Assembly (NCBI GenBank): GCA_002792115.1
Contig: PFNQ01000013.1
Location: 7,236-71,235 of the forward strand
Direction: 5' to 3'
DNA: 64,000 nucleotides
Source: Candidatus Woesearchaeota archaeon CG_4_10_14_0_2_um_filter_33_13
Lineage (GTDB): Archaea; Nanobdellota; Nanobdellia; Woesearchaeales; GW2011-AR9
Part shown: positions 19,614-35,311 of the stretch, piece by piece
How the letters are laid out: every line of letters begins with the position of its first letter
Position numbering within the stretch: position 1 is the stretch's first letter
Notes under the pieces: generated by a model
Databases searched by the model: none
Told to the model about the DNA's origin: nothing
Seen by the model: only the letters and a program-made list of their open reading frames with translations
Translations under genes and position numbers: made by a program

Positions 19614-19614
19614 C

Positions 19615-20293: not shown

Positions 20294-20301
20294 TTTATAA
20301 A
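20294..20301 (-). promoter_or_regulatory. TATA box (TTTATAAA) for the GT2/DUF2304/GT4/flippase transcription unit
   Basis: Palindromic TTTATAAA 23 nt upstream of ATG 20271. Confidence 0.5.
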
Positions 20302-20356
20302 GATTATGAACTATAAAACCTCTCTGAAGTAAGAAGATAATAAAAAATAACGTTTC

Positions 20357-23260
20357 CTAGCAGTTGTAATCAACGATCCACGTTGAAATTTTCCCGCCAG
20401 TAAACTGTTGTACTTCATCAAACTTTTCAAAGCACTTCGTTCCAAGACCATCAAAAAAGAATAACTTGGTAAAGGTGCTGTACGCCAGCGACGTGTCAGA
20501 TAACAACGCAGCATACCCATTACCATTTGGAATCAGAATTAAAGATGAACCGATAGTCTGACCATCAAATTTTTGTTCTTTTAACTCTTTTCCTTGTACA
20601 TAAACTAAAGATGCTGGGGAAACATTTTGTCCGTTATTAGTTCTAACTTTAGCAATGGCTTCATTTAAATTGATATCTAATGTAATGGATCCTTGCTGAG
20701 TATTGATCTGGCAGGTTACATTTGCTGAACTACTATTCTGACATTGATTTAACCCAGAATGATAGCTTGGCCATGAAGCAATCCATTGATCGGCATCTGT
20801 GGTTTGTATTTCATAACGAATCCTGTCTGCTTCATCTTCAGTTAAGGAGAAATTTTTAGTTAAATAATTAATTGCATCATCTTTTTTCATATTTTTTGTA
20901 TTTTGATACATAACTGCTTTATCAAAATCCCAGCTTCCAAAATGTCCCCAAACTCCTGCTTTACCCACCATATCTTCTGAGGTGATGTAATAATCGGTTG
21001 GTGCTTCGCAGTGTGTGTATTGAATAACGGAAGCCACTTGATTAGCATTTAATCCATAATCATTTAAGGTTTCAATCGCAGCTTCTTTCTTTTCTACGAT
21101 TATTTTGTTGATTATCTTAATCTCTTTTGGCGTGTCATTGAAAATATTATCTAACTCTATGAATGCACTGTTTTGCCCGCAATTTAACATTCTGATTATG
21201 CCTACTGTTGTTTTTTCATCGCTTGTCAAAAGTGATTTCCCGACCCAATGGGCATCCCATCCAACTTGCATACCTCCATCAAAGGTTGTTGGTCGCTCAG
21301 CTATCGCCATAAACCAGTATCCAAAATCCCACCACGAAGTTATCACTGCTTCAGCGGGAGCTTCGCTATTGATCTTAGTTAAAGTGTTATGCCAAGCATC
21401 ATTCATCGCTGGTACAGAATTGTATGCAGTTGAATATCCTGCCATGCTTGGTTGAATTAATAGCACTCCTAACAATAAAAATACAACCACCTTTGAAATA
21501 GTTAAATTAAGATTTAGTTCTTTATTAGTCCAATTACTAATATAACTCCAAGCTAATCCCAAGAATGCACCGAATAATATTGCCACTATCGGTGCAACCA
21601 TTAAAATAAACCTAACTCCCCTTGTTGTAGTATATAATGCTATAGCTAACCAAAAAGATAAAATTAATGCAATCATCAAATTATTGTTTGATTTATCTTT
21701 AACATTTCTTAACATCAATAAAATAATTCCTACTATCGCTAGAGTAAAAATTAGTTTTCCTCCTACTTGGCTGATTACTTGTGAGAATGGAGCAACATTA
21801 AGCTCTGCTACTGTAGTTAAGATATTTGGCCATAAGGAATCTATTGCTACTGCCTTTAAGTGGATTAATGAATTTATTGGTTCAAACAATCCGCTGTAAA
21901 AAGAGTTAAACGAACTAAATATAGAAACAAAAAGTCCTGAACTTATGAGGTAGGTTCCAAATAGGGACACATTTGAGAAAAAATCATCTTTCTTAATTAG
22001 AGTTTTAAGAGCCTTAGAATTTCTAATTAATTCATAAGCAAAGTATGAAAGCATAGATACTGCAAATATGGAAAAGAAATACCACCAAGCTCCCCACACA
22101 AAACTAAGTAATCCTGTTGCTAAACCAGCTAAGACAGTCCAACCTAATTTCTTCTTTAAATCCTTGCAAGTAATCGCTTCAATTAATAACCACAAAATCA
22201 GTATTGGAAAGAAGACAACGTAAACATCTGTGTCTGAACTTTCTCCGGTGGTTCTGGAAACAAAAAAAGCTGAGACTGCAATTAAAATAGCAACAAAAAA
22301 TCCACCAACATTATTTTTAGTGATTTTTTTACCGATAAAGAATGCAGGAATAACTGTTAATGCTGAGAAGATAGTTCCTATTAAAAAGAAACTAAACATC
22401 AATGGTACGTCTGAAAAAGAACTTAAAAATCGATGTAAAAATGCTCCAAACCAGGTGTGAAAATTTCCCCCTTCTGGTGAACCAGTTGGGTAGGCTCGAT
22501 AAGAATCATAATACTTTCCATCTTTTATTGAATTACCCGGATGACCATTTTCTAATCTATATTCTGTTTGTCTGTAAAAATAATAAGGGTCAATTCCTAA
22601 CAGATATAAAGTTCCCTGATCATCTCTAAACTGATCTTTATATTGTTGTGATACTTGCTTAATATCATTATTAACCTGGTCCTTGTTTTTCTCTTTTAAT
22701 TTTTGCAATTCATTCTGGACTAATGCATCTCTGTTTTGTTGTGGCAAGTTAGGATACTGTTGATTGATCTGGGCGGTAACTTGATTTTGATAAAAATTAT
22801 TAACTGTATTGTCGGCCCATTCATCGGTTATTGACATTCTTAATGGCATGGTTCGTAGATAAACAGAAGCAAACATAGCAATTAAAATAAATAATGCGGG
22901 GATGATCCATTTAGCATTAGTTTTAGCAAAAGTGGTAATTTTTGAAAAATCTACAGAAAGTTCGTCATCATTAACTTCTTTTTTGTGATGTTTATGTTCC
23001 GGATGGGAATGTTTATCTTTATCAGAAGAAGTTAAGCTTTTAAAAAATCGTTTAGCTTTATTTTTTATCTCAGAAAAATCTATTGATAAATCCTCATTAT
23101 CCTTATGAAACTCTTTTTTAACAACTTCTACTTTCCCAAGAGTGATCGTTTTTTTGTCACTATGATGTTGCAAAGTGTCTTCTGTTTTTGTTTCTTCCTG
23201 CTCCTCAGTATTAGAATCAATCTTAATATCTTTAGCCAATTTTCCACCCCAATAATCCAT
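20357..23260 (-). CDS. aglB: Archaeal oligosaccharyltransferase AglB (STT3 family)
   Basis: 967 aa and polytopic. It has the WWDYG-type motif SWWDFGYW (encoded at 21314-21334) and the EL1 motif GIDPYYFYRQ. There is an unusual charged N-terminal extension of about 117 aa. Confidence 0.9.
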   Translation of the reverse strand: MDYWGGKLAKDIKIDSNTEEQEETKTEDTLQHHSDKKTITLGKVEVVKKEFHKDNEDLSIDFSEIKNKAKRFFKSLTSSDKDKHSHPEHKHHKKEVNDDELSVDFSKITTFAKTNAKWIIPALFILIAMFASVYLRTMPLRMSITDEWADNTVNNFYQNQVTAQINQQYPNLPQQNRDALVQNELQKLKEKNKDQVNNDIKQVSQQYKDQFRDDQGTLYLLGIDPYYFYRQTEYRLENGHPGNSIKDGKYYDSYRAYPTGSPEGGNFHTWFGAFLHRFLSSFSDVPLMFSFFLIGTIFSALTVIPAFFIGKKITKNNVGGFFVAILIAVSAFFVSRTTGESSDTDVYVVFFPILILWLLIEAITCKDLKKKLGWTVLAGLATGLLSFVWGAWWYFFSIFAVSMLSYFAYELIRNSKALKTLIKKDDFFSNVSLFGTYLISSGLFVSIFSSFNSFYSGLFEPINSLIHLKAVAIDSLWPNILTTVAELNVAPFSQVISQVGGKLIFTLAIVGIILLMLRNVKDKSNNNLMIALILSFWLAIALYTTTRGVRFILMVAPIVAILFGAFLGLAWSYISNWTNKELNLNLTISKVVVFLLLGVLLIQPSMAGYSTAYNSVPAMNDAWHNTLTKINSEAPAEAVITSWWDFGYWFMAIAERPTTFDGGMQVGWDAHWVGKSLLTSDEKTTVGIIRMLNCGQNSAFIELDNIFNDTPKEIKIINKIIVEKKEAAIETLNDYGLNANQVASVIQYTHCEAPTDYYITSEDMVGKAGVWGHFGSWDFDKAVMYQNTKNMKKDDAINYLTKNFSLTEDEADRIRYEIQTTDADQWIASWPSYHSGLNQCQNSSSANVTCQINTQQGSITLDINLNEAIAKVRTNNGQNVSPASLVYVQGKELKEQKFDGQTIGSSLILIPNGNGYAALLSDTSLAYSTFTKLFFFDGLGTKCFEKFDEVQQFTGGKISTWIVDYNC

Positions 23261-23291: not shown

Positions 23292-23309
23292 ATTTATTAT
23301 CCTCAATAA

Positions 23310-23348
23310 GGTGCTACATCCAATTTTTCTAGAAATTGGCACTGCACC
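23310..23348. other. Imperfect hairpin H1 in the aglB-mbf1 intergenic region
   Basis: GGTGC-tacat-CCAATTT-ttctag-AAATTGG-cact-GCACC. Confidence 0.5.
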
Positions 23349-23363
23349 ATTATTGAGATCTTA

Positions 23364-23438
23364 AAAATGCGGTGTGTTGAAAATCGTTCTGTGATACTCT
23401 GTTCTTTGAGGCAGAATGGAACGATTTTACCGCATTTT
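23364..23438. other. 75-nt extended hairpin H2 (20 bp of stem), candidate structured RNA or protein-binding palindrome
   Basis: AAAATGCGGT (23364-73) pairs with ACCGCATTTT (23429-38). AAAATCGTTC (23380-89) pairs with GAACGATTTT (23419-28). There is a 6-nt 5' bulge and a 29-nt apical loop. Confidence 0.55.
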
Positions 23439-23498
23439 ATGATACTTGAAGCAGGTGTTCGCCGATAAGTTTTAATATTGGTTAAATTTAAATCACTT

Positions 23499-23987
23499 AT
23501 GGCTGTTTGTGAAATGTGTGGAAAGGATGCGTATTTATCTAGTGTAAACGTTGAAGGGGTAGAACTAAAAGTTTGCCCTAATTGTAGTAAGTATGGTACC
23601 AAAAACCCTTCCCTTGAGCGTAGATTTAACTCGCGAGACCGATTTAAACAAGATAAGTCTTCAAATCGGCAAGAAGTTGAATGGAAGATCATTGAAAACT
23701 TCTCTATTTTACTTAAGAAAGCGAGAGATGAGAAACATTTTACTCAAGAACAATTTGCAAAGTTTATCAATGAACGGGAAAGCGTATTGCAAAAATGGGA
23801 GAATGGCGATCTTAAACCTAGAATTGATGTAGCAAGGAAACTAGAACAAATTTTAAATCTGAACTTAGTTGTTAAGGACAACAAAGACACTAGTGAAGGT
23901 GATGAAGACTTAACCTCAAATCAAAAGAATAAAAAGGCTGCAGAAGAGTTCACGTTAGGAGACTTTATCAAAATTCGTAAAAAGTAA
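23499..23987 (+). CDS. mbf1: Archaeal multiprotein-bridging factor 1 (zinc ribbon + HTH)
   Basis: MAVCEMCGKDAY..VCPNCSKYG zinc ribbon followed by an HTH (FTQEQFAKFINERESVLQKWENG). The track ORF begins at TTG 23478. ATG 23499 is preferred because a TATA-like box lies 21 nt upstream. Confidence 0.85.
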   Translation: MAVCEMCGKDAYLSSVNVEGVELKVCPNCSKYGTKNPSLERRFNSRDRFKQDKSSNRQEVEWKIIENFSILLKKARDEKHFTQEQFAKFINERESVLQKWENGDLKPRIDVARKLEQILNLNLVVKDNKDTSEGDEDLTSNQKNKKAAEEFTLGDFIKIRKK

Positions 23988-24022: not shown

Positions 24023-24880
24023 TCATAAATATATGATTGATAAGGTTAATCCCACCCATATTGCCATCCCTATAACTAAAGGCTTATTTTTAAATACCCT
24101 TTCCGGATGTCTAGCAACATCAGAACCATTATTTATTAAGTTCAAGAATCCAAAGATTAAATAGATCCCTAAAGGGACAGTATAGATGAGAGTTGGGTGT
24201 TCACTAAGAAAGGAGTATAAACAATACGAAACAATTAATAATATCGTAGAGAAGTTCACTAATTGGTTCGTCAGCTGTTTGTTGTAATGTTCTAATATTG
24301 CTCTTGTTCTCTTACCATCGGTTTTCATTAAGCTTAAATCTGCCTGCCTTTTTCCTACAACCAAAAACAATGCTAAGAAAAAAGGGCACAAAATCAACCA
24401 CGGAGAAACCCAAACATCAACTGCTAAAGCTCCAGATAACGCTCGTAAGGCAAACAAACTAGCAATAGTCAGGATGTCTGCGAACAAAACATTCTTTAAG
24501 TAAAGAGTATAAATCTGCGTTAGTACAAATAACAAGATTACAATTAATAAAAATGTTAAGTTAATTGATTTTGCTATCAACAAACCGATTATTAGTAAAA
24601 GCAATAATGCCAAAATTGCTTTATTTAAGCCAATCTTTCCAGAAGCAAGAGGACGGTTTTTCTTCTCTGGGTGCAGGGCATCTTTTTTTCTGTCAACTAA
24701 ATCATTAATAATATATCCTGCCGAAGAAACAAAAGATAGTGAGAAGAAGGCTAAAATGGAAATTAAGAATAGTTCTCCATCAAAAAGTTTCTCAGAAAAG
24801 ATAATCGCCAGGAATACAACTAGGTTTTTGTACCATTGTCTGATTCGCATCAGGTTCAAATAATCTTTGATTTTAGTCAT
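24023..24880 (-). CDS. UbiA-superfamily enzyme resembling polyprenyl-phosphate phosphoribosyltransferase (DPPR synthase-like)
   Basis: N-terminal MRIRQWYKNLVVF (RxxQWxKN) and NDLVDRKKDALHPEKKNRPLASG motifs. 285 aa with about 8 TM segments. 8-nt overlap with the upstream GT-C gene. Confidence 0.7.
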   Translation of the reverse strand: MTKIKDYLNLMRIRQWYKNLVVFLAIIFSEKLFDGELFLISILAFFSLSFVSSAGYIINDLVDRKKDALHPEKKNRPLASGKIGLNKAILALLLLLIIGLLIAKSINLTFLLIVILLFVLTQIYTLYLKNVLFADILTIASLFALRALSGALAVDVWVSPWLILCPFFLALFLVVGKRQADLSLMKTDGKRTRAILEHYNKQLTNQLVNFSTILLIVSYCLYSFLSEHPTLIYTVPLGIYLIFGFLNLINNGSDVARHPERVFKNKPLVIGMAIWVGLTLSIIYL

Positions 24881-26309
24881 TTTCTAGAGGAAGATAAATC
24901 TTATAATTGCACGTTTTAATGGTTTTATTAAAGATTTCTTTGTTCTCAATCTCAATTTGGGCCAATAATTCTGCCTTTTCAGATACACATTCGTTATCCT
25001 TAGGCTTACAAATTAGATCACAATCATTGATAAAAATAAGTTGGTATGGTTCTTCTAATTTCCCGTAGATTTTTGCTGCAAATTCCATGCCGTCTAAAGT
25101 GATAATCTTATTATCTAAAAAAGAAACAAAAGATGGGTCTGACGAGACAATTGTTCCAGTAATATTTTTTTCGGTAATAATCTGTTGAATCTCTGTCCTG
25201 AAGGCCGGAGCACTTTCAAAACTAAGGTTAGCTGGCATTGGTACTAGTAATAGCAATAATACAACAAGCAAAAATGCTTTTGGTTTAATAAATGGCTTTT
25301 GCTGTTGTTTTAAATTCTCATAAATCATTAGAATTACTTTTACAGCAAAGAATGCTAAGAAGGGTATAATTATCACCAAGTATCGTGGCTCCTTTCTTGG
25401 AACAATAAAAATAAAATAAACTAGAGTGAGGATCGTTATTGTTAGCGTGATTATACTATGACCTGTTACATCTATTTTCCTCCTAAAGAAAAGATATCCA
25501 TAATAAATTGAGAATAGGAATATTGGGTTACTTAAAAAGAAATGTAAGAAGTAGTAACTCCAACCTTGGCCATATAACCAGGTTGCTGTTCCTACAATCA
25601 TTGATCCAGACAAGAATGGTTCCAAAATGTTTCCGTACTTATACTGATTTAAGATTAAGTATGGGATTAATGGTAATAAAAAACCAACGCCCAAAAAGAA
25701 GATATTTTTAGTCTTCCCCCATAACGTTTCTTTGTTGAATAAAAGAACAATTGCTACTCCTGCAATGTACGTCCAAAGCGTAAATTTAGTTAAGAAAGCC
25801 AAACTTAATAATACTCCAGCGAGAAATATCTTTGTTTTATGTTGATGACCTAATAACAAATAAAGGCCAAGTAACCCAAAAGTCATCGCCAATGGTTCAG
25901 TAAGAATCATTCCGGTATGCATCAGGAATATAGGAGTTACACTAAAGATTAATGATGAGAAGAATGCGGTTTTCTTGTCAGAGACCTGTTTAACAATCTT
26001 GTAAAAAGCAGCAATTGCGATTAGAGAAAATAATAGGTCCAAAATTTTTCCAAAAGCAATTGGGTTTAACCCTAGTTTCCAAATTAAACCGATTAAGAAT
26101 GGATGGATCAACGGACGAAATGATTCCCAAATTCCAATTTCTCCTCCAGTGAAGATATATTTGCCCATACCAATATACACGTGGGCGTCCCACCACAATG
26201 GCCAATTAATTGATAAGTAAAAGATTCTGATCAGAAAACTAAATACTAGAACAAAAAAAAAAGGCTTTTGTTTAATTAGGTTAAACATTCTTTGCAAGTA
26301 TTGTTTCAT
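24873..26309 (-). CDS. GT-C fold membrane glycosyltransferase (ArnT/PMT-like)
   Basis: 478 aa: about 11 TM segments plus a C-terminal soluble domain. The first loop reads WPLWWDAHVY. Confidence 0.65.
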   Translation of the reverse strand: MKQYLQRMFNLIKQKPFFFVLVFSFLIRIFYLSINWPLWWDAHVYIGMGKYIFTGGEIGIWESFRPLIHPFLIGLIWKLGLNPIAFGKILDLLFSLIAIAAFYKIVKQVSDKKTAFFSSLIFSVTPIFLMHTGMILTEPLAMTFGLLGLYLLLGHQHKTKIFLAGVLLSLAFLTKFTLWTYIAGVAIVLLFNKETLWGKTKNIFFLGVGFLLPLIPYLILNQYKYGNILEPFLSGSMIVGTATWLYGQGWSYYFLHFFLSNPIFLFSIYYGYLFFRRKIDVTGHSIITLTITILTLVYFIFIVPRKEPRYLVIIIPFLAFFAVKVILMIYENLKQQQKPFIKPKAFLLVVLLLLLVPMPANLSFESAPAFRTEIQQIITEKNITGTIVSSDPSFVSFLDNKIITLDGMEFAAKIYGKLEEPYQLIFINDCDLICKPKDNECVSEKAELLAQIEIENKEIFNKTIKTCNYKIYLPLEND

Positions 26310-26312
26310 TAT

Positions 26313-27050
26313 TTAATTTTCTTCTGTTAGACAGATCTCAGAGTTTTCTAGTGAGTTACAGATCTGTTCTTGTAACTGTTCTTTACTTACAACACCTTCA
26401 AACTTTCTGTTATCAATGATTAGGGTGGGATATTTCTTAACAGTAAATTGTTCCATTACAATATCTACCATTGGTTCACTGTTCTTTAAATCAACATTAA
26501 TTGGAAAGACTAATACTTGTTCCCCAAATTTTTTCTTGAAGTATGTAAGTATGGTTCCTTGGTTTGGACAAGAAGGACAGTCAGCGGAGTAGAAGTAAAT
26601 AATTGGTACAATATCTAAATTACATTTTTTCTTACTTTCTAAGGCTAATAACCAGTAACGGAGGTTGTCGATGGCATAACGCCGCATGATAATGGTTTTT
26701 CTGGCATCAGAAACTTTTTGTTCTTCTTCATAAGCAACAACCTCACTAAGTGATTCAGAAAGGTCGACAACGGCCTCCTTAAGAGTTGTAGATAAGATTG
26801 GACAATTATCGGCATTATTAAATGCGTTGAGATAAAGATATTGCATCTGTAAACTTAAGTATTTAGTTTCTTGTGCTAAATTAACGTCTTCTATTAAGTT
26901 ATATCTATAATCATCTAAAACAAACCCTAATGTTATTCCTAATGAGAATATTAACAAAGTTATCACTCCTGCGATAATATACTTATCCTTACTTATTCTT
27001 CTAAAATTATTTTGATCATTAGTTTTGTCTTGTTTTTTTTCACTTACCAT
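26313..27050 (-). CDS. Membrane-anchored thioredoxin-fold protein (CxxC)
   Basis: One N-terminal TM (IIAGVITLLIFSLGITLGFVL) followed by FYSADCPSCPNQG and a Trx-like region (VFPINVD..KYPTLII). Confidence 0.6.
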   Translation of the reverse strand: MVSEKKQDKTNDQNNFRRISKDKYIIAGVITLLIFSLGITLGFVLDDYRYNLIEDVNLAQETKYLSLQMQYLYLNAFNNADNCPILSTTLKEAVVDLSESLSEVVAYEEEQKVSDARKTIIMRRYAIDNLRYWLLALESKKKCNLDIVPIIYFYSADCPSCPNQGTILTYFKKKFGEQVLVFPINVDLKNSEPMVDIVMEQFTVKKYPTLIIDNRKFEGVVSKEQLQEQICNSLENSEICLTEEN

Positions 27051-28333
27051 TTTAGTTTTTTACCTCTAGCAAATTCAAATAGTGATAATAGTAATATCAC
27101 TCCTTTAAGCAAATAATAAAAAAAGAAATAGGGGATTAAAGGAATAAATCCAAACTTAGTCATTCTTTCATTAGCATTTTTATGGGCTAAATAAAAAAAA
27201 GATGCACCAACGACAAAAATAAAGATAATTAAAAAACTGCGCCTAAAATCCATCTGCAAGAAATTAATCAAGTTAAATTTGAAACTTAATGTTTTAAGAT
27301 AAGGTATTATGTTAAATTTTATTGCAATCAAATTCTTTACTCGATTAATCATTGGCAAGAAGATTAAATAAACCGCAATAGTTATCCCTGTTATTGCCAA
27401 TATGTATCCCGCAACATTCTTAATCATCTGCATCATGCCGAAATCACCGTACTTTTTATTGGCGATTAATTCCTTGTATTGGTTAACACAAATTATACTC
27501 CCCAAATACCATCTCCTTCTTTGTCGGTAAAAGGGTTTAACTTCTTTTGGTGCAGTAGTATGAACATAACCATCAAAACATTGCTTTATTTTGTAATGAT
27601 GTTTTTGTAGTCTATAAGCAATCTCCTGATCTTCAGTTATGCTTTTAACATCAAATCCTCCTAATTCTCGGATGATCTTTGTTCTGTATAATGAGAATGG
27701 GCCTGGTGCCACATATAAAGAATCTAATCTGCTAGAAAGTCTTGCAATCAAGATAATTACTAAGTACTCTAACCACTGCACACGTTGTAGTAAATTCTTT
27801 GGTTTGTCAACTTTCATTGCGGGGGTAACAATAGCTAATTTGGGATCATTTTCTTGATCATAGATATTTAACATTTTTCTTAATGTCTGTGGATCTACAA
27901 AAGAATCGGCGTCCAGACAAGCAAAAAAATCTCCCTTCGTTAATTCTAAGGCCTTGTTCATAGATGCAGCCTTTCCTATGTTTTTGTGAGAGATTAACTG
28001 AAAATGTTTTTTATTTTGAATGTATTCCGCGATTATTTTTTTTGTATCGTCCTTAGAACCATCATCAATAACAATAACCTCTAATTTATCTTTTGGGTAT
28101 TCTATTTCATTGATTGATTGTAGTGTTCTCAGTATTGTTTTCTCTTCATTGTACGCAGGGACAAGAATAGAGACAAATGGAAATTTGTTTATTTGAGTGG
28201 AAGATTTTTCTTTTTTGAAAAATTCTCGATTATCCAGATAAACCAATAATAAGAATATTGAAAAGTACAATGATATAGCATACACAATCCATAATAGCAT
28301 ATTTACAAATATATTCATCAGTTTGTACTCCAA
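27044..28333 (-). CDS. Processive family-2 glycosyltransferase (membrane-integrated beta-glycan synthase; PgaC/NodC/cellulose-synthase-like)
   Basis: VPAYNEE, IDDGSKDDT, LDADSF, ITEDQE and the RQRRRW (QxxRW) motif. TM segments lie on both sides of the catalytic domain. Confidence 0.8.
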   Translation of the reverse strand: MEYKLMNIFVNMLLWIVYAISLYFSIFLLLVYLDNREFFKKEKSSTQINKFPFVSILVPAYNEEKTILRTLQSINEIEYPKDKLEVIVIDDGSKDDTKKIIAEYIQNKKHFQLISHKNIGKAASMNKALELTKGDFFACLDADSFVDPQTLRKMLNIYDQENDPKLAIVTPAMKVDKPKNLLQRVQWLEYLVIILIARLSSRLDSLYVAPGPFSLYRTKIIRELGGFDVKSITEDQEIAYRLQKHHYKIKQCFDGYVHTTAPKEVKPFYRQRRRWYLGSIICVNQYKELIANKKYGDFGMMQMIKNVAGYILAITGITIAVYLIFLPMINRVKNLIAIKFNIIPYLKTLSFKFNLINFLQMDFRRSFLIIFIFVVGASFFYLAHKNANERMTKFGFIPLIPYFFFYYLLKGVILLLSLFEFARGKKLKW

Positions 28334-28344
28334 AAGTTTTAAGC

Positions 28345-29751
28345 TTAGTCAGCTTTCCCAAACACCCACACCTCAGAATCTTCGTTGGAATGGACTAATT
28401 TAAATCTTTCGTTTTTAAGTAAGAAAAGCAGACCTTGTTCTTTGGGCAAGATTTCTTTCATATATTTGTTAACATATATAATAGAAATGTTGTGTTCTTC
28501 AAGTATTGGAAAAAGTTCGGTAATATACAATGATGCTAATGCTTTATACGTTAGATCTAAGGAAGAAGAATCTTTTTGTTTAAACAACGTTTCCCTTCCA
28601 GAAAAATAATTGATAATAAATGTATTCTCCGGCAAAGATAAGACCTTGCCTTCTTGAGGTATGTTTTGCTGAACCCAATACAAAGATTCTATGTCTCCAG
28701 CAGTTGGTCCATTTTCTTTGACTCTATCTAAATATGTTATTGTGGAGAAAAGCAGACCTAACACTAATAACAAAAACGTGAACTTTTTAAGAGAAATTAA
28801 GTTCCAATCTCGTTGAAATAGTTTTATAATTCCTGTGGCTGCAAAGAAAGAAGTTAACAGGCTTAAATGAAAAATTGCTTGGCTGTTTAACAAATATGCT
28901 CCCAAGGCGAGAGGTAAGAAAAGGTAGAAAATGTAAAAATTTTTCTTCTTCCAAGTTGTGGTTAAACCAATTAACGCTAAGGCTAAGGTAAATATTTTTA
29001 TGCCACTAACACTACCAAAGTCAGATATTAAACTGGCAATCTTCATCTGAAAGTTGAAAGGACCTAGAATGAATGGAATCTTTAAAACCAAATAATTAAA
29101 TAAAGCAATTATTGTAATTGAAGAGATAATCACATAGCCCTGCAAACTAAAATCTTTTTTTATCAAATATAAGTAGCAAGCTAAAATCAGAATCATAAAT
29201 ATGCTACTATATAGGTCAAAAAAAGTTGCCAAAAGAAAAGGAATTATTGATAAATGGTGTTGCCAATTTTCCTTTTGGTAAAAGTAAAATCCTAATAATA
29301 CAAGAGTAATGTAAAAGGAATATGCTGATAATGTACTAAATGTGTAAATAAATGTTGGAGATAGTGATACCATTAACAAAAAGAAGAAAATAACTTTATC
29401 TGAGATAGTTGTTTTTTCAGTTATTTTGAAGAAAAGCCATAATGAAACGATGGCTAGTCCTAATGGCAGTAATATTAACAAGCTCGTGGAAAATAATTCT
29501 GTCGCCAACTGTAACGGCAGATAATAAAATGTGTTAATGTCCCAAGATTGTGCCTTTAAGAGATGGTAATAACTTTCTTCTCCCATCAATATTGGTTTGC
29601 CCAATGAATGATTATACAGTGAAGGAAGTAACAAGACTACTAAAAATAAACATATGAAAAATGTTCTTTGGTTTTTTAGAAAAAAATTGAATATTTTATT
29701 GTTACTGCTAATAATGGTTTGTTCAATTTTAGTATCTTCGGTTTGACTCAT
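28345..29751 (-). CDS. Polytopic membrane protein, GT-C/STT3-like architecture without WWDYG
   Basis: 468 aa. The first loop MGEESYYHLLK resembles the STT3 EL1 motif. There are about 11 TM segments and a C-terminal soluble domain of about 130 aa (VLSLPENTFIINYFSGRE). Confidence 0.5.
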   Translation of the reverse strand: MSQTEDTKIEQTIISSNNKIFNFFLKNQRTFFICLFLVVLLLPSLYNHSLGKPILMGEESYYHLLKAQSWDINTFYYLPLQLATELFSTSLLILLPLGLAIVSLWLFFKITEKTTISDKVIFFFLLMVSLSPTFIYTFSTLSAYSFYITLVLLGFYFYQKENWQHHLSIIPFLLATFFDLYSSIFMILILACYLYLIKKDFSLQGYVIISSITIIALFNYLVLKIPFILGPFNFQMKIASLISDFGSVSGIKIFTLALALIGLTTTWKKKNFYIFYLFLPLALGAYLLNSQAIFHLSLLTSFFAATGIIKLFQRDWNLISLKKFTFLLLVLGLLFSTITYLDRVKENGPTAGDIESLYWVQQNIPQEGKVLSLPENTFIINYFSGRETLFKQKDSSSLDLTYKALASLYITELFPILEEHNISIIYVNKYMKEILPKEQGLLFLLKNERFKLVHSNEDSEVWVFGKAD

Positions 29752-29752
29752 T

Positions 29753-31243
29753 TTATTTTCCGATCAATTTACATTTTATTAAATAAATTTTTGTTTCTTG
29801 ATTATAAATCAATTCAAAACAATTCTTATCTAAGTAAGGTAATTCTTCAATTCCATACCTCTGTTTTGATTTTGAGGTTATTACAATATAATTAATTCCA
29901 TACGCATCGTAAATGCTTAGGGCCTGTGTTTGGAATTTAGCAGTAAACAGAGCGTTCAAATTATCAAATCTTTGATTTACTTTTTTTATTAAATTAAACT
30001 GGTCATCCATCAAATTTTTTCTGTTTCCATAATAGCTTACCAAGCTGCCCTCTCTAAGATTAGATGCCACCACGCTTTTTTCAGGAGTATTTTGCTTTAA
30101 CCAGACAAAACTATTTACTTGTTCTGTTGTTGGAGTATCTTGATCAAGAGAAAAACTTAATGCTGGGGGAACAATTGTCAAAAGTAATATGATTGTTAAA
30201 ATTAAAGTTATCTTTTTAGTGTAATTGTAGAATTTTGTTTTTTTAATATAATCTGTAAGGTCAACATAAAATACTGAAAACAATATTGCTAAGATTATGG
30301 CAAAAAAACTTAATGATAATTTGAATTCTATTAGCTTTAACCATGATAATATCGTTGTTGAAATGACAAAACTAATCAATAAAAATGCCTTTTGATTTTT
30401 AAGATTAAACAAAGAATTATAGACCACATATATTCCTGTAACAAAGGGAATTATACCAACTAAAACTATTGCCTGTGCTAATGATAATTGTGGATAGTAT
30501 TGAGCTAGAATCTGTTGTGGGATGTTTTGCCAAATAAAGTTTATCCCTTCTGTCAATAATGTCTGTTTGTAAAATAGAAATTGCGTCCAAAGGTAAAGGA
30601 AAAAAGAGAAGATAATGACTTCTGTTTCAGCCCGGTTTATTCTTTTCTTTTCAATTGCTAACAAAACCAAATAGATTAGGTATCCTCCTAAAATTAAGAT
30701 TGTCCCAGAGCTGGTTAAGGAAAGGCAAAACATGGAAAAGATGTACAAATACAAGTAAAATTCTTCTTTAATATTTAAGAAGGCATAGATTGAAAGAAAC
30801 AGAAGCGGCAAAAATAGTGTTTGTGGCGTAAATGAATCTGTTGAGTATAATATTGGTAGGAATCCAGCTATTACGGCCGATAATATTGATGCTTGCTGGT
30901 TATCTGTTAATTTCTTGCTTATCAAATATACTAATGGAACAATTAAAGCGATTAACAAATTTGGTAAAATTTTGGCAACTAGTTCTAAAGGAAGGATTAG
31001 AGCAAAAAATGCTGCAAGATAGTGAAATAATGGTAGAAATACATTAGTTCTTCCTCCATAAGATAGAGGGTCATTGTATAAAGGCAATCCTGTTGAAGAA
31101 ATATGTTCCACCTGTCTAAGATGAAAGTAAGAATCGTATGTTAAGTTTGGCATAAAAAAAGCAAGGACTAATCTTATCGTTAAAGTTAGCATAAATATTG
31201 CCAATAACCAGTATTTGGTATTTTTACCCATAAACATTAACAA
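29753..31243 (-). CDS. Polytopic membrane protein, GT-C/STT3-like architecture without WWDYG
   Basis: 496 aa. The first loop is NLTYDSYFHLRQ. There are about 12 TM segments and a C-terminal soluble domain (VVASNLREGSLVSYYGNRKNLMDD). Several Met codons occur near the start (MLMFMGKN), so the start is uncertain. Confidence 0.5.
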   Translation of the reverse strand: MLMFMGKNTKYWLLAIFMLTLTIRLVLAFFMPNLTYDSYFHLRQVEHISSTGLPLYNDPLSYGGRTNVFLPLFHYLAAFFALILPLELVAKILPNLLIALIVPLVYLISKKLTDNQQASILSAVIAGFLPILYSTDSFTPQTLFLPLLFLSIYAFLNIKEEFYLYLYIFSMFCLSLTSSGTILILGGYLIYLVLLAIEKKRINRAETEVIIFSFFLYLWTQFLFYKQTLLTEGINFIWQNIPQQILAQYYPQLSLAQAIVLVGIIPFVTGIYVVYNSLFNLKNQKAFLLISFVISTTILSWLKLIEFKLSLSFFAIILAILFSVFYVDLTDYIKKTKFYNYTKKITLILTIILLLTIVPPALSFSLDQDTPTTEQVNSFVWLKQNTPEKSVVASNLREGSLVSYYGNRKNLMDDQFNLIKKVNQRFDNLNALFTAKFQTQALSIYDAYGINYIVITSKSKQRYGIEELPYLDKNCFELIYNQETKIYLIKCKLIGK

Positions 31244-31256: not shown

Positions 31257-31264
31257 TTTATAAA
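31257..31264 (-). promoter_or_regulatory. TATA box (TTTATAAA) for the six-gene GT-C/GT2/UbiA operon
   Basis: 14 nt upstream of the first Met codon at 31243 and 17-26 nt upstream of the next Met codons (31240, 31234, 31231). Confidence 0.4.
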
Positions 31265-32913: not shown

Positions 32914-33897
32914 TTGATTATGCGTAAAGTAGTTACTTTAGGTGGCGGAACTGGCAATTTTACTGTTCTAAGAGGACTTAAGAAATATGATCTTGATCTC
33001 TCTGCGATTGTTTCTATGGCTGACGATGGTGGTAGTACAGGGATATTGCGAGATGAATTAGGAGTCTTGCCTCCAGGAGATGTTCGTCAATGTTTAGTGG
33101 CGTTATCTGATTCTAGTAGGTTAATGCGTAGCTTGATGAACTATCGTTTTGAAAATGGTTGTTTGCAGGGCCATAGCTTTGGTAATTTATTATTATCTGC
33201 TTTAGAGAAGGTTACTGGTAGTTTTGAAAAGGCGGTGGAAGAAGCAGGAAAAATTCTTTCCATTAAAGGAAAAGTTATTCCCGTAACTACTAATCCCGTA
33301 AGGTTACAAATGCTTTTACCCAATGGTAAGATCTTAAGGGGAGAAAGTGAAATATTGATGTCGAAAAAATCCCTTGTTGGTTTTCAAAGTTTATATTTAG
33401 AACCATTTCCTAAAGCCAATCCTCATGCTATTGATGAAATACTTAACGCCGATTTAGTTGTTTTTGGTCCGGGTGGTTTGTATACTAGTTTAATTCCTTT
33501 ACTTTTAGTTGAAGGTGTGGGGAAGGCCCTGAGGGAAACTAAAGCCAAGAAAGTCTTTGTACTTAACCTGATGAATAAAAAAGCCCAGACTCCAAATTTT
33601 AAAGCAAACAGTTATTTGCAAGAAATTAAAAAATTTATGGGCAAAGATGTTTTTGATTACATTCTGATAAATAATGCTAGGCCAGATCAAGAGTTAATTT
33701 TCAAGTATTCAGAAGAGAGCGAATTTATTGATAATGATCTAGTTAAAGATTCTCGAGTCCTTGAAACAGATTTGATTGATAAAGAATCTGCGGAATATAG
33801 TTCTAGTGATGCCTTGGCAAAAACTAGAGCATTAATTCGTCATGATCCTAAAAAGCTTGCAATAGTGTTAATGAATATAATGGATGAGAAATGTTAA
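32914..33897 (+). CDS. YvcK/CofD-family protein (UPF0052, 2-phospho-L-lactate-transferase-like fold)
   Basis: VVTLGGGTGNFTVLRGLK..SMADDGGSTG..GDVRQC motifs. The track start is TTG; ATG at 32920 is likelier. Confidence 0.8.
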   Translation: MIMRKVVTLGGGTGNFTVLRGLKKYDLDLSAIVSMADDGGSTGILRDELGVLPPGDVRQCLVALSDSSRLMRSLMNYRFENGCLQGHSFGNLLLSALEKVTGSFEKAVEEAGKILSIKGKVIPVTTNPVRLQMLLPNGKILRGESEILMSKKSLVGFQSLYLEPFPKANPHAIDEILNADLVVFGPGGLYTSLIPLLLVEGVGKALRETKAKKVFVLNLMNKKAQTPNFKANSYLQEIKKFMGKDVFDYILINNARPDQELIFKYSEESEFIDNDLVKDSRVLETDLIDKESAEYSSSDALAKTRALIRHDPKKLAIVLMNIMDEKC

Positions 33898-34585
33898 AAT
33901 GCTGATTATCTTAGACTTAGATGATACTTTGATTGATACTTCTGGGTATTATCTGCCTTTAAAACTGCGTCAGGCTTTAGATGCAATGATTAATTCTGGG
34001 TTGGAGACGGGGGATAAAAAAGAAGAGCAATTGTTTCAAGCATTGTTACAAATTGACACTAGTTCTCCTAATGGTAGAGAGACTATAAAGTCTTTCTTAA
34101 CTCAATATTCTGCAGGAAATAATTCTCGTCTTTTTGAGGTTGGAGAAGAAGCATATTATGGTCCATGTGCTGATGAGTTTAAAATTCCTTTGTTAGATCA
34201 TACCAACGAAGTCATTTCTTATTTAAAACAAAATGGTCACATTCTTGTTCTAGTAACTTATGGGATGAAATCTGAGCAGCATAAAAAGATCCTAACATCA
34301 GGCATTAGGAAAGAATTATTTGATCAGATCATAATTGTTGATTTTACCGAAGGATATGATAAAGGGCACGTTTATAAAAAACTATTAATGGAATATGGTC
34401 TCTCTGAGAAAGAGATCGTTGTTTGTGGGGATAAATACAGTAGTGATATCTTACCGGCAAAAAAATTAGGACTTAAGACTGTGCATTTTAGACATGGCCG
34501 TGGAAAAAATCACCGTTATAATCCCAACGAAGTTGATTATTCAATTGAGAATATTATTAAACTTAAAGAAATTGTTGAAAATTAA
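33884..34585 (+). CDS. HAD-superfamily hydrolase
   Basis: ILDLDDTLIDT (DxDxT) and GDKYSSDI motifs. The start could be ATG 33899. Confidence 0.75.
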   Translation: MRNVKMLIILDLDDTLIDTSGYYLPLKLRQALDAMINSGLETGDKKEEQLFQALLQIDTSSPNGRETIKSFLTQYSAGNNSRLFEVGEEAYYGPCADEFKIPLLDHTNEVISYLKQNGHILVLVTYGMKSEQHKKILTSGIRKELFDQIIIVDFTEGYDKGHVYKKLLMEYGLSEKEIVVCGDKYSSDILPAKKLGLKTVHFRHGRGKNHRYNPNEVDYSIENIIKLKEIVEN

Positions 34586-34612
34586 TTAAAACTTAGCGAA
34601 AAAATTATTAAA

Positions 34613-35311
34613 ATGAAAGTTGTTATTTTAGCAGCAGGGAAAGGGACTAGAATGTTACCCTTAACAGAAACATTTCCCAAGGTATTGGTGCCGATAAATG
34701 GCAAACCATTTTTGTATTATCTGATGAGAAATCTGCAGAAAGCAGGTTATTCTGAGTTTTCTTTGGTGGTTGGTTACAAAAAAGATAAAATTCAGAGTTT
34801 TCTGAAGGAGTATGGTTTTGAAGCAGAATTGATAGAACAAAAAGAACAACTTGGAACAGGCCATGCCGTTTTACAAGCCAAAAATTTTGTTAATAATGAA
34901 GAGTTTATTGTTTTGGGTGGAGACAATCTGTGGGGTGTTGATGATTTAAAAGGTATTAATCAAAAGGACGAATTTAATTATATCAGTGGTTTGGAAGTAG
35001 AAAATCCAGAAAAGTATGGCGTTTTAGTTGAAGAAAAAGGTTTATTAAAAGACATTAAAGAAAAACCAAAACAGTTTGTTGGTTATCTGATTAATACTGG
35101 GCTATATAAGTTTAAGTCTGAAGTGTTTACATATTTAGAGAATGTTATTCCTTCTGTAAGGGGAGAGATAGAACTAACTAGTGCGATTGCTAAGATGGCA
35201 GAAAAGAATAAAGTTAAGGTTTTAAGGGTTTTAACTTATTGGAAGGATCTTGGTTGTATCAAAGATGTAGAACCATTAGAACATTTCTTGAAAGAAGTAT
35301 GGTCAGAATAA
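34613..35311 (+). CDS. Sugar-1-phosphate nucleotidyltransferase
   Basis: MKVVILAAGKGTRMLPLTETFPKVLVPINGKP is the canonical NTP-transferase N-terminus. 232 aa. Confidence 0.85.
   Translation: MKVVILAAGKGTRMLPLTETFPKVLVPINGKPFLYYLMRNLQKAGYSEFSLVVGYKKDKIQSFLKEYGFEAELIEQKEQLGTGHAVLQAKNFVNNEEFIVLGGDNLWGVDDLKGINQKDEFNYISGLEVENPEKYGVLVEEKGLLKDIKEKPKQFVGYLINTGLYKFKSEVFTYLENVIPSVRGEIELTSAIAKMAEKNKVKVLRVLTYWKDLGCIKDVEPLEHFLKEVWSE

What the first reader, a model, noticed from the sequence alone, without database searches (positions are those of the whole stretch)
24023..31243. Six-gene envelope-glycan operon combining three GT-C proteins, a processive GT2 synthase, a membrane thioredoxin and a DPPR-synthase-like UbiA enzyme
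All six ORFs are on the minus strand with gaps of 1-11 nt or overlaps of 7-8 nt. The coordinates are 29753-31243, 28345-29751, 27044-28333, 26313-27050, 24873-26309 and 24023-24880. They lie behind a single TTTATAAA box at 31257. The GT2 carries the full processive-synthase motif set (DDG, DAD, TED, QRRRW) flanked by TM helices, the PgaC/NodC/cellulose-synthase architecture. Three neighbours have the GT-C layout of 11-13 TM segments plus a C-terminal soluble domain. The last gene resembles the enzyme that makes a lipid-linked pentose donor. This combination is not the canonical Agl N-glycosylation pathway, whose AglB sits separately at 20357-23260. It looks like a dedicated system for building an extracellular polymer or lipoglycan in an archaeon that may lack a conventional wall.
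Basis: partly seen in the sequence, partly recalled or inferred. Interest (0 to 1): 0.7.

Follow-up and report, generated by a model that had tools for sequence, protein, structure and literature searches.

The report
Woesearchaeal membrane glycan-assembly operon
A tightly packed six-gene operon in a tiny groundwater archaeon (Woesearchaeota) encodes a membrane sugar-polymer synthase, a thioredoxin-like membrane partner, three lipid-sugar-dependent transferases and a lipid-ribose donor enzyme. Its core is conserved in about 80 related species, so it probably builds a cell-surface glycan that nobody has yet characterised.

Summary
Six co-directional minus-strand genes occupy 24023-31243 with gaps of 1-11 nt or overlaps of 7-8 nt.

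- **Gene assignments.** g3 is a PgaC/NodC/BcsA-type membrane GT2 with invariant DD, DxD, TED and QRRRW. g4 is a membrane-anchored thioredoxin fold with six conserved cysteines, including a CxxC. g5 is a PMT_2/GT22-like GT-C. g6 is closest to decaprenyl-phosphate phosphoribosyltransferase.
- **Correction.** g1 and g2 are not ArnT/PMT-like. They are mutually paralogous STT3/AglB-like proteins that lack the WWDYG motif.
- **Co-conservation across 80 species-level Woesearchaeal genomes.** g3-g4-g5 is nearly universal (72/74 and 69/72). g1 and g2 occur in 59/73 and are always found together. g6 occurs in only 27/63.
- **New result.** Distant g4 relatives (about 25-30% identity) in other archaeal metagenome contigs still sit next to QxxRW GT2 genes, but in a divergent, duplicated arrangement. 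GT2 plus the thioredoxin-like protein is therefore the stable functional module.

The product, the acceptor and the processivity of g3 remain unknown. Verdict: a real, uncharacterised, lineage-wide envelope-glycan locus, and a new variant of known synthase and GT-C systems. Interest is moderate.

The parts
31257..31264 (-). TATA-box-like TTTATAAA in the 74-nt divergent intergenic region between g1 and radB. It is the putative promoter of the operon.
   Evidence: Sequence read. It is the only exact copy between 23292 and 32000. It lies 20-27 nt upstream of the g1 ATG at 31237, which is compatible with a leaderless transcript (inference).
29753..31237 (-). g1: 494-aa GT-C membrane protein with about 12 hydrophobic segments and a C-terminal soluble domain of about 130 aa. 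It is STT3/AglB-like but lacks WWDYG.
   Evidence: The start is set by the 100%-identical P0241. Family hits are Pfam PMT_2 at 26.6 bits (borderline) and NCBIfam archaeo_STT3 at E 1.9e-10. A profile search of the PDB hits STT3, PglB (298-418 vs 362-485, E 1.2e-6) and the AfAglB-S2 C-terminal domain 3vu0. The EL1 D/E35 is kept in 27/29 homologues and aligns to the AglB DPYY motif. WWDxG is replaced by x-L-E-E-G, with G397 invariant. E206, C473 and C489 are invariant.
28345..29751 (-). g2: 468-aa GT-C membrane protein. It is a divergent paralogue of g1 and is STT3-like without WWDYG.
   Evidence: It has no Pfam hit. hhalign of the g2 family against the g1 family gives probability 99.9%, E 3e-35, over 417 columns. 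A profile search of the PDB hits STT3A (E 9e-7), 3vu0 (2e-5) and PglB (1e-4). E/D59 is kept in 28/31 homologues, and the WWDYG position is degenerate (S-x-P-E-x). It co-occurs with g1 in 59/59 loci.
27044..28318 (-). g3: 424-aa membrane GT2 of the PgaC/NodC/BcsA synthase type. It has one N-terminal TM helix, a cytoplasmic GT-A domain and 3-4 C-terminal TM helices.
   Evidence: Pfam Glycos_transf_2 scores 121 bits. NCBIfam PgaC_IcaA scores 176.5 bits over 14-381 (model positions 15-375 of 407), which is below the equivalog cut-off of 422. DD, DxD, TED and QRRRW are invariant. The AF2 model has pLDDT 77 overall and 50-75 in the TM part. The top Foldseek PDB hits are PcManGT 6yv7, XlHAS1, BcsA and CvHAS. 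BcsA aligns over 19-278, including QxxRW.
26313..27050 (-). g4: 245-aa type-II membrane protein, made of an N-terminal TM helix, a three-helix bundle and a C-terminal thioredoxin fold with a C158-P-S-C161 motif. It is predicted to face outward.
24873..26309 (-). g5: 478-aa GT-C glycosyltransferase of the PMT_2/GT22/GT50-like kind, with a Cys-containing C-terminal soluble domain.
   Evidence: Pfam hits are PMT_2 at 46.5 bits (cut-off 26.1), Glyco_transf_22 at 30 bits and PMT at 20 bits. A profile search of the PDB hits GPI mannosyltransferase 1 and a mannosyltransferase, 9s6t (E about 1e-5). D41 (within WWD), Y45, K50, E62 and R65 are invariant, and C434 and C441 are kept in at least 90%. It is present in 69/72 loci.
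24023..24880 (-). g6: 285-aa UbiA-superfamily enzyme closest to polyprenyl-phosphate 5-phosphoribosyltransferase (DPPR synthase).
   Evidence: Pfam UbiA scores 102.5 bits. NCBIfam NF008977 scores 225.5 bits (cut-off 234) over the full length, while the next non-DPPR UbiA family scores at most 74 bits. The best PDB match is 8j8j, M. tuberculosis DPPR synthase (E 1.7e-24). The aligned motifs are NDLVDRKKDALHPEKKNRPLASG and GKRQAD. It is present in 27/63 relatives, and only in genomes that also carry g1/g2 (25/25).

Best explanation
This is a conserved Woesearchaeal operon for assembling a cell-envelope glycan on the outer face of the membrane.

Shown:
- The six proteins belong to the families listed under 'parts'.
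- The GT2 (g3), the membrane-anchored CxxC thioredoxin-like protein (g4) and the PMT_2-like GT-C (g5) form a near-universal, co-directional, translationally coupled core.
- The g3+g4 pair persists even in a distant lineage with a different gene arrangement.

Inferred mechanism:
1. g3 uses a cytoplasmic UDP-sugar (identity unknown). It makes a beta-linked chain, or primes a lipid, and passes it across the membrane through its own TM domain, as PgaC, NodC, BcsA and HAS do.
2. g4 contributes one TM helix and an outward-facing helical-bundle/thioredoxin domain, and acts as the synthase's obligatory partner. Its redox-active CxxC either forms disulfides in the outward-facing domains of the machinery (g1 and g5 carry conserved Cys pairs) or gates export.
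3. g5 then decorates or extends the glycan outside the cell, using a polyprenyl-phosphate-sugar donor.
4. In this lineage g6 makes polyprenyl-phospho-ribose-5-phosphate from PRPP as an additional pentose donor.
5. The paired WWDYG-less STT3 paralogues g1 and g2 transfer glycan to an acceptor other than an N-X-S/T sequon, such as a lipid, the polymer or a surface protein.
For: - Family assignments rest.
- The synthase motifs are invariant and are retained in GT2s only 22-33% identical.
- Co-conservation in 80 species-level genomes with GT2 identity of 41-74%: g4 in 72/74, g5 in 69/72, g1+g2 in 59/73.
- Spacing is tight across species, with median gaps of -7 nt for g3->g4 and -11 nt for g4->g5.
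- The g1-g2 module stays adjacent even when inverted (L062, L067, L069), and g1 and g2 are gained or lost only together.
- Genes inserted into the cluster in some relatives are unrelated and sporadic.
- In the converse test, 37 metagenome loci were anchored on g4 relatives about 25-30% identical to g4. Every locus with enough flanking sequence has one or two QxxRW GT2 genes next to the g4 relative. These are transcribed divergently or occur as extra GT2->g4 pairs.
- The g4 cysteines and cis-Pro loop are conserved.
- The extracytoplasmic domains of g1 and g5 carry conserved Cys pairs.
- g6 occurs only where g1/g2 occur.
Against: - No product, sugar donor or acceptor can be read from sequence.
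- g3 falls far below the PgaC_IcaA equivalog cut-off (176 against 422 bits).
- Its best structural match is PcManGT, which the depositors name a mannosyltransferase and which has a cellulose-synthase-like fold.
- QxxRW also occurs in GT21 lipid glucosyltransferases. The Pfam Glyco_transf_21 hit scores 42 bits and ceramide glucosyltransferase is a PDB hit.
- The TM part of the g3 model has low confidence, so a channel is not demonstrated.
- radB and MBF1 flank the cluster in most relatives, so part of the conservation reflects general synteny.
- g4 could be the cell's general extracytoplasmic disulfide oxidoreductase.
- The PAP2 phosphatase that accompanies UbiA in 18/27 relatives is absent from this window.
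- No DprE1/DprE2-type epimerase was seen among the 45 window ORFs scanned against Pfam.
Confidence: 0.45

Rival explanations
1. The operon is an accessory branch of protein glycosylation rather than a polymer system. In this reading g3 is a non-processive membrane GT2 (like PcManGT) that adds sugar to a dolichol-linked oligosaccharide. g1/g2 are alternative oligosaccharyltransferases with a non-canonical acceptor motif. g5 is a protein or N-glycan mannosyl-type transferase using Dol-P-sugar. g4 oxidises the cysteine-rich glycoprotein substrates.
For: - g1 and g2 are STT3/AglB-like in both the TM region and the C-terminal domain.
- PcManGT is the top structural hit for g3.
- In this window the operon lies next to an AglB/GT2/GT4/Wzx-type flippase cluster, inside a glycan-gene island of about 23 kb.
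- g5 matches the PMT/PMT_2 families, which include protein O-mannosyltransferases.
Against: - WWDYG, which forms the Ser/Thr pocket of every characterised OST (PMC3703281), is missing from both g1 and g2.
- A canonical AglB is already present.
- AglB is within 10 kb in only 9/44 relatives.
- The PcManGT alignment stops before QRRRW, whereas the BcsA alignment includes it.
- The PgaC model scores far above the Agl GT2 models: 176 bits against 38-49 bits for AglJ/AglG.
- The distant branch keeps GT2+g4 without any STT3-like or GT-C neighbour.
Confidence: 0.25
2. The operon is a lipoglycan or glycolipid pathway. In this reading g3 glycosylates a membrane lipid (archaeol or polyprenyl phosphate) once or a few times, as GT21 ceramide/diacylglycerol glucosyltransferases do. 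After flipping, the GT-C enzymes g5, g1 and g2 elongate and branch the glycolipid outside the cell from polyprenyl-P-sugar donors, including the ribose donor made by g6. This follows the logic of mycobacterial LM/LAM assembly.
For: - The Pfam Glyco_transf_21 hit is above its cut-off (42 against 21.7 bits; 69.7 bits for the distant GT2).
- Ceramide glucosyltransferase is among the PDB hits.
- g3 has only 4-5 TM helices, few for a self-sufficient channel.
- Three GT-C enzymes plus a DPPR-synthase-like enzyme parallel the AftB/UbiA/PAP2/GlfT2 neighbourhood of mycobacteria (own knowledge).
Against: - The full-length best match is PgaC/IcaA, and HAS and BcsA rank above lipid GTs in the fold search.
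- No flippase gene lies in the operon; the nearest Wzx-like gene is in the agl cluster at 16866-18146.
- The role of g4 is left unexplained.
Confidence: 0.2
3. The six genes are not a functional unit. They are independent housekeeping membrane proteins kept together only by the slow decay of synteny in small DPANN genomes.
For: radB and MBF1, which have no plausible glycan role, are conserved as flanks in most relatives. The presence of g6 and g1/g2 is phylogenetically nested and could simply track ancestry.
Against: - Translational-coupling distances are kept across GT2 identities of 41-74%.
- The g1-g2 block moves as a block yet stays adjacent.
- GT2+g4 linkage survives a complete change of orientation and copy number in a distant branch, which synteny decay cannot explain.
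- All six products are membrane glycan-pathway families.
Confidence: 0.05

Closest known systems
PgaC-PgaD / IcaA-IcaD poly-beta-1,6-GlcNAc synthases, and the NodC chitooligosaccharide synthase
   Same: g3 is a membrane GT2 of about 420 aa with D, DxD, TED and QxxRW motifs and TM helices flanking a cytoplasmic GT-A domain. PgaC_IcaA is its best NCBIfam model. Like PgaC and IcaA, it is always followed by a small membrane protein, g4, which is often translationally coupled to it.
   Different: g3 scores well below the equivalog cut-offs. The partner is a single-TM thioredoxin-fold protein with a CxxC, and its only family matches are thioredoxin-type. No deacetylase or porin family matched any of the six operon proteins; PilZ/c-di-GMP elements were not looked for specifically. 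The product is unknown.
Mycobacterial arabinan machinery (Rv3806c UbiA DPPR synthase, Rv3807c PAP2 phosphatase, AftA-D/Emb GT-C transferases, GlfT2 GT2)
   Same: g6 is closest to DPPR synthase. In 18/27 relatives it sits beside a PAP2 phosphatase, and it is clustered with GT-C transferases and a GT2. The logic is the same: a lipid-linked pentose donor is used outside the membrane by GT-C enzymes.
   Different: The organism is an archaeon. No DprE1/DprE2 epimerase was seen locally, so the sugar would be ribofuranose(-5-P) rather than arabinofuranose. This window has no PAP2. The GT-Cs are STT3-like and PMT_2-like, not Emb/Aft. The GT2 is a membrane synthase, not the soluble GlfT2 (the mycobacterial gene roles are from my own knowledge).
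STT3/AglB/PglB oligosaccharyltransferases (GT66), especially the short AglB-S paralogues of Archaeoglobus fulgidus
   Same: g1 and g2 share the multi-TM N-terminal region with its EL1 acidic residue, and a C-terminal domain matching the AglB-S 'CC unit' structures 3vu0 and 3vgp (PMC3703281).
   Different: They are about 100 aa shorter than AglB-S. WWDYG is replaced by x-L-E-E-G in g1 and by S-x-P-E-x in g2. Neither has a Pfam STT3 hit. They always occur as a pair of paralogues.
Three-component extracytoplasmic glycosylation systems (GtrA/GtrB/GtrC; CsbB-GtcA-YfhO) and Dol-P-Man synthase + PMT
   Same: A GT2 on the cytoplasmic face is paired with a GT-C that transfers sugar on the outer face.
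   Different: GtrB, CsbB and DPMS lack the N-terminal TM helix and QxxRW. They rank far below the synthases for g3: GtrB-like sll0501 scores 36-41 bits and DPMS 26-37 bits.
PcManGT (PDB 6yv7), crenarchaeal membrane mannosyltransferase with a minimal cellulose-synthase-like fold
   Same: It is the best Foldseek hit (E 1.6e-17, TM-score 0.54/0.65). It is archaeal, of similar size and has the same overall architecture.
   Different: Identity is 20%. PcManGT has G-A-D-D where g3 has I-T-E-D, and the alignment ends before QRRRW. By the title of its paper, it is reported to act in N-glycan biosynthesis (the full text is not held).

Membership tests
Processive membrane GT2 synthases (PgaC/IcaA, NodC, BcsA, HAS, CHS) | GT-A domain with D, DxD, (T)ED and Q(R/Q)xRW motifs | tested here: met
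   VIDDGS, LDADS, ITEDQE and QRRRW are present. They are invariant in 19 homologues and kept in GT2s 22-33% identical.
Processive membrane GT2 synthases (PgaC/IcaA, NodC, BcsA, HAS, CHS) | Cytoplasmic GT domain flanked by TM helices that form a glycan channel | tested here: inconclusive
   There are one N-terminal and 3-4 C-terminal TM helices. HAS and BcsA are among the top fold hits. The TM region of the model has pLDDT of only 50-75, so no channel can be asserted.
Processive membrane GT2 synthases (PgaC/IcaA, NodC, BcsA, HAS, CHS) | Score above the curated equivalog cut-off of a named synthase model | tested here: not met
   PgaC_IcaA scores 176.5 against 422.3, NodC 75 against 550, CelA 85 against 699.
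Processive membrane GT2 synthases (PgaC/IcaA, NodC, BcsA, HAS, CHS) | Processive polymerisation and export of a homopolymer | not testable with these tools
   This needs an enzyme assay or product analysis.
Polyprenyl-phosphate 5-phosphoribosyltransferase (DPPR synthase, UbiA superfamily) | UbiA fold with an N-D-x-x-D-x-x-x-D motif followed by H-P-x-K-x-x-R-P, and G-K-R-x-x-E/D in place of the second Asp-rich motif | tested here: met
   The alignment to 8j8j shows NDLVDRKKDALHPEKKNRPLASG and GKRQAD against GKRYAE. That these motifs are family-specific is my own knowledge.
Polyprenyl-phosphate 5-phosphoribosyltransferase (DPPR synthase, UbiA superfamily) | Score above the NCBIfam equivalog cut-off | tested here: inconclusive
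   NF008977 scores 225.5 bits against a cut-off of 234, over the full length. Models of other UbiA subfamilies score at most 74 bits.
Polyprenyl-phosphate 5-phosphoribosyltransferase (DPPR synthase, UbiA superfamily) | Pathway partners: a PAP2 phosphatase and a DprE1/DprE2 epimerase | tested here: not met
   There is no PAP2 in the window (tblastn), although 18/27 UbiA-bearing relatives have one beside it. No FAD-oxidase/epimerase pair was found among the scanned window ORFs. Whole genomes were not searchable.
STT3/AglB/PglB oligosaccharyltransferase (GT66): g1, g2 | Multi-TM N-terminal region with a catalytic acidic residue in external loop 1 (first DXD motif) | tested here: met
   g1 D/E35 is kept in 27/29 and g2 E/D59 in 28/31. 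g1 YDSYFHLRQ aligns to AglB IDPYYFYRQ.
STT3/AglB/PglB oligosaccharyltransferase (GT66): g1, g2 | [quoted passage not shown] | tested here: not met
   The equivalent positions read N-L-R-E-G in g1 (family consensus x-L-E-E-G) and L-P-E-N-T in g2. The motif definition is from PMC3703281.
STT3/AglB/PglB oligosaccharyltransferase (GT66): g1, g2 | C-terminal 'CC unit' fold | tested here: inconclusive
   Profile hits to 3vu0 (E 4.7e-5 and 2.1e-5) and 3vgp (E 0.11 and 0.016).
STT3/AglB/PglB oligosaccharyltransferase (GT66): g1, g2 | DK/MI motif; second DXD motif | not tested
   These could not be placed reliably without a structure-based alignment.
PMT_2 / GT-C polyprenyl-P-sugar-dependent transferases (ArnT/PMT/ALG9-like): g5 | Pfam PMT_2 above the gathering score, and a conserved acidic residue in the first external loop | tested here: met
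   PMT_2 scores 46.5 against 26.1 and GT22 scores 30.0 against 23.8. D41 is invariant in 31 homologues.
Thioredoxin-fold thiol-disulfide oxidoreductases: g4 | Thioredoxin fold, CxxC at the N-terminus of helix 1, and a cis-Pro loop | tested here: met
Thioredoxin-fold thiol-disulfide oxidoreductases: g4 | Redox activity and extracytoplasmic location | not testable with these tools
   The topology is inferred from the positive-inside rule on the sequence.

The most novel reading that the evidence does not exclude
The membrane GT2 and the outward-facing CxxC thioredoxin-like protein form a previously undescribed two-subunit archaeal glycan synthase. In it, a redox-active partner takes the place of PgaD, IcaD or BcsB and is required for synthesis or export. 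In Woesearchaeales this core has recruited a heterodimer of WWDYG-less STT3 paralogues as glycan ligases for a non-sequon acceptor. It has also recruited a dolichyl-phospho-ribose donor pathway. The result would be a pentose-decorated envelope polymer, an archaeal counterpart of the mycobacterial arabinan logic.
Probability: 0.2. Interest if true: 0.75.

Novelty: new variant of a known kind. Interest (0 to 1): 0.55.

Why it matters
Woesearchaeota and other DPANN archaea are mostly uncultured, and their cell envelopes are essentially unknown. This locus is a concrete, lineage-wide candidate for an envelope glycan.

Three parts of it can be tested directly.
1. **Synthase plus thioredoxin-like module.** The GT2 and the thioredoxin-like protein stay linked even after rearrangement. 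If they form a complex, this would be a new kind of accessory subunit for synthase-dependent polysaccharide secretion.
2. **STT3-family proteins without WWDYG.** If active, they would show the oligosaccharyltransferase scaffold being reused for an acceptor other than the N-X-S/T sequon.
3. **An archaeal DPPR-synthase-like enzyme.** This would extend lipid-linked pentose donors beyond Actinobacteria and a few Proteobacteria.

There is also a practical point. Public annotation of these genes is inconsistent: 'hypothetical', 'GT39', 'Stt3', 'DUF2079', 'TraF'.

Tried and rejected
- **Exact look-up of the 429-aa TTG-start GT2.** It is not on record. The ATG-start 424-aa form is the deposited one.
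- **tRNA and Rfam scans of the window.** Nothing was found.
- **PAP2 in the window.** tblastn gave only chance hits, with E above 2.
- **Extra conserved partners.** I looked among genes inserted into the cluster in relatives. They were DUF362, PEP-utilizer, Q_salvage-like, SpoIIM, radical SAM, NUDIX and Glu dehydrogenase. They are sporadic and unrelated, and I rejected them as pathway members.
- **A small DPM-like GT2 substituting for UbiA in divergent relatives.** It is adjacent in only 10/63 loci and is usually on the opposite strand. I treat this as weak.
- **PAP2 as a dedicated DPPR phosphatase.** Its best models are undecaprenyl-diphosphate phosphatases, only weakly. It also occurs without UbiA in 7 loci. 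This stays ambiguous.
- **g4 as a redox regulator of g3.** I rejected this. The conserved cysteines of g3 (C134, C247, C277) are cytoplasmic or within the membrane, and C134 is not kept in distant GT2s.
- The 30-sequence distant g4 alignment had no stretch conserved enough to scan with, so I replaced it with a 3-sequence alignment. The PcManGT paper is not held.
- **Literature.** Searches found no description of this operon. One review modelled a Woesearchaeota PgaC/BcsA-like GT2 on its own (PMC10086821).

Full report
**1. Observation**

The junctions are a 1-nt gap, an 11-nt gap, a 7-nt overlap, a 3-nt gap and an 8-nt overlap.

Two starts should be moved. Database proteins identical to g3 and g1 begin at internal ATGs, giving g3 as 424 aa from 28318 (P0001) and g1 as 494 aa from 31237 (P0241).

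A palindromic TTTATAAA lies at 31257-31264, 20-27 nt upstream of the g1 ATG, in the 74-nt divergent spacer shared with radB. No other exact copy lies inside the operon. The octamer is not enriched in the window (15 against 10.2 +/- 3.2). Other copies sit at TATA-box distance from AglB and from the small GT2.

The operon ends against a convergent MBF1-like gene at 23478-23987(+). The overlapping minus-strand ORF 23303-23692 has no family hit and is probably spurious. The source is a Candidatus Woesearchaeota MAG from the CG_4_10_14_0_2_um_filter series, with 29-37% GC.

**2. What the proteins are**

- **g3.** It has a GT2 domain at 121 bits. Its best NCBIfam model is PgaC_IcaA (176.5 bits, nearly full length, below the 422-bit equivalog cut-off), ahead of CelA, NodC and the Agl GT2 models. 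DD, DxD, TED and QRRRW are invariant in 19 homologues. An AF2 model (pLDDT 77, TM part 50-75) is most similar to PcManGT, Xenopus and Chlorella-virus hyaluronan synthases, and BcsA. The profile alignment to BcsA runs through QxxRW, whereas the alignment to PcManGT stops before it. A review has already modelled a Woesearchaeota PgaC/BcsA-like GT2 in isolation (PMC10086821).
- **g5.** It is a PMT_2/GT22-type GT-C with an invariant WWD aspartate.
- **g6.** It scores 225.5 bits on the DPPR-synthase model NF008977 (cut-off 234). Its best solved relative is M. tuberculosis DPPR synthase.

**3. A correction: g1 and g2 are STT3-like**

g2 has no Pfam hit and g1 has only a borderline PMT_2 hit. Their family profiles match each other at 99.9% probability (E 3e-35). 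Both profiles hit STT3, PglB and the C-terminal domains of A. fulgidus AglB-S1/S2 in the PDB (structures identified in PMC3703281).

The first-loop acidic residue is retained and aligns with the DPYY motif of the window's own AglB. The WWDYG motif, which forms the Ser/Thr pocket of every characterised OST, is replaced by x-L-E-E-G in g1 and is degenerate in g2. They are therefore GT-C proteins of the OST lineage that fail a defining OST feature.

**4. Co-conservation**

A scan of one genome per species returned 80 loci whose GT2 is 41-74% identical. Nearly all are labelled Woesearchaeota or Nanoarchaeia, and some labels are evidently wrong. I searched their six-frame ORFs with the window proteins and counted only loci with enough flanking sequence.

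| Gene | Present / loci evaluable |
|---|---|
| g4 | 72/74 |
| g5 | 69/72 |
| g1 and g2 (always together) | 59/73 |
| g6 | 27/63 |
| PAP2 phosphatase (18 of them beside g6) | 25/63 |

- Median inter-gene distances are -5.5, +33.5, -7, -11 and +25 nt.
- The g1-g2 block is sometimes inverted together with radB but stays adjacent (L062, L067, L069).
- g6 occurs only where g1/g2 occur (25/25).
- Genes inserted in some relatives are unrelated.
- radB and MBF1 flank the cluster almost everywhere, so some of this conservation is plain synteny.

**5. The GT2 and thioredoxin-like pair is the stable module**

The g4 family is larger than it first appeared. It has 660 clusters at 50% identity with E up to 1e-10, all with the full-length architecture. 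C83 and C143 are kept in 128/128 and the CxxC in about 96%.

I anchored a metagenome scan on three distant members, about 25-30% identical to g4. The 37 resulting loci have archaeal neighbours: an S-layer-like protein, a DUF7343 HTH protein and SRP54. Every locus with sufficient flank again has QxxRW GT2 genes next to the g4 relative. The layout is different, however. Two tandem GT2s are transcribed divergently from it, and in some loci there is an additional co-directional GT2->g4 pair. No GT-C or UbiA genes are found nearby.

Linkage that survives inversion and duplication argues for a functional GT2-g4 partnership. It also marks the GT-C and UbiA genes as lineage-specific additions.

**6. 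Mechanism**

*Shown:* the families, motifs, topology predictions and linkage.

*Inferred:*
1. g3 polymerises, or primes, a glycan from a nucleotide sugar and passes it outward.
2. g4 is its outward-facing partner. Its CxxC either oxidises cysteine pairs in the extracytoplasmic domains of the machinery (g1 C473/C489; g5 C434/C441) or acts on export.
3. g5 adds sugar from a polyprenyl-P-sugar.
4. g6 supplies polyprenyl-P-ribose-5-P.
5. g1/g2 transfer glycan to a non-sequon acceptor.

I give this 0.45. The rivals are an accessory protein-glycosylation branch (0.25), a glycolipid/lipoglycan route with g3 acting as a GT21-like lipid glycosyltransferase (0.20), and mere synteny (0.05). Sequence alone cannot identify the sugar, the acceptor or the processivity.

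**7. Comparison and novelty**

The locus works like a synthase-dependent system (PgaCD/IcaAD) grafted onto a GT-C and lipid-pentose logic reminiscent of mycobacterial arabinan assembly. It fails membership tests for each named system:
- g3 falls below the PgaC/NodC/CelA cut-offs.
- No PgaD- or PgaB-type family matched any operon protein.
- g1 and g2 have no WWDYG.
- The window has no PAP2 and no DprE1/E2.

I found no paper describing the operon. I rate it a new variant of a known kind, with interest 0.55.

Noticed in passing
window 107-23260: The operon sits at the edge of a glycan-biosynthesis island of about 23 kb. The island holds three GT4s, an FkbM methyltransferase, a GHMP kinase, an NTP-transferase/HAD fusion, an NAD epimerase, a B12-radical SAM enzyme, an FGGY kinase, two more NTP transferases, a GDPD and a His-phosphatase. 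It ends with a Wzx-like flippase, a GT4, DUF2304, a small PpgS/AglJ-like GT2 and AglB, all on the minus strand (16866-23260).
   Followed up: partly
window 20357-23260 (-): AglB is 967 aa. It has a K/E/H/D-rich N-terminal extension of about 115 aa before the first TM helix, and a Q/N/K-rich insertion before the DPYY motif. The Pfam STT3 match only starts at residue 205.
   Followed up: no
window 23303-23692 (-) and 23478-23987 (+): Two ORFs overlap here. The plus-strand ORF is an MBF1/HVO_2718-like Zn-ribbon plus HTH_3 regulator and is conserved as the downstream flank in most relatives. The minus-strand ORF has no family hit and is probably spurious.
   Followed up: partly
window 38775-42119 (-): This is a 1114-aa protein with a lamin-tail domain, a CARDB domain and a match above threshold to the Nup98-96 autopeptidase S59 family (31.5 against 28.4 bits). 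It could be a self-cleaving surface protein.
   Followed up: no
L093, L094, L098, L103, L106 (about 8270-10570, minus strand): In the distant GT2/g4 branch, a 711-754-aa protein lies about 0.6 kb beyond the g4-like gene. The L094 copy matches PF05124 (S_layer_C). A small ORF of about 175-200 aa lies between the two genes.
   Followed up: no
L105-L107 (4334-9543), L115, L118: Some distant loci carry the module more than once. They have two divergent GT2s, a g4-like gene, a third GT2 and a second g4-like gene.
   Followed up: no
L001 14298-14756, L010 14311-14823 and 23 other loci: A small PAP2 phosphatase follows UbiA in most relatives. It also occurs without UbiA (L003, L012, L035, L040, L046, L047, L050) and is missing from this window. 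Its best models are undecaprenyl-diphosphate phosphatases, matched only weakly.
   Followed up: partly
L005, L008, L011 and others; L068; L078: Many genome records that carry this Woesearchaeal synteny are titled 'uncultured Methanosarcinales archaeon'. One is titled Aenigmatarchaeota and one 'Candidatus Aminicenantes bacterium'. The labels are probably placeholders or binning errors.
   Followed up: no
window 32914-36856 (+): Downstream of radB and rpS2 lie a CofD-like protein, a HAD hydrolase, a sugar-phosphate nucleotidyltransferase and an AMP-phosphorylase-like enzyme (Glycos_transf_3 + PYNP_C). These could bear on the supply of nucleotide sugars or ribose phosphate.
   Followed up: no
L013 8339-9412, L016 6809-7903, L077 12648-13739; L021 13377-14654, L033 13355-15964: DUF362 or PEP-utilizer-domain genes are inserted next to UbiA in several relatives. 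In L013, L016, L021 and L033 they lie between g5 and UbiA. UbiA is therefore less tightly coupled to the core than in this window.
   Followed up: partly
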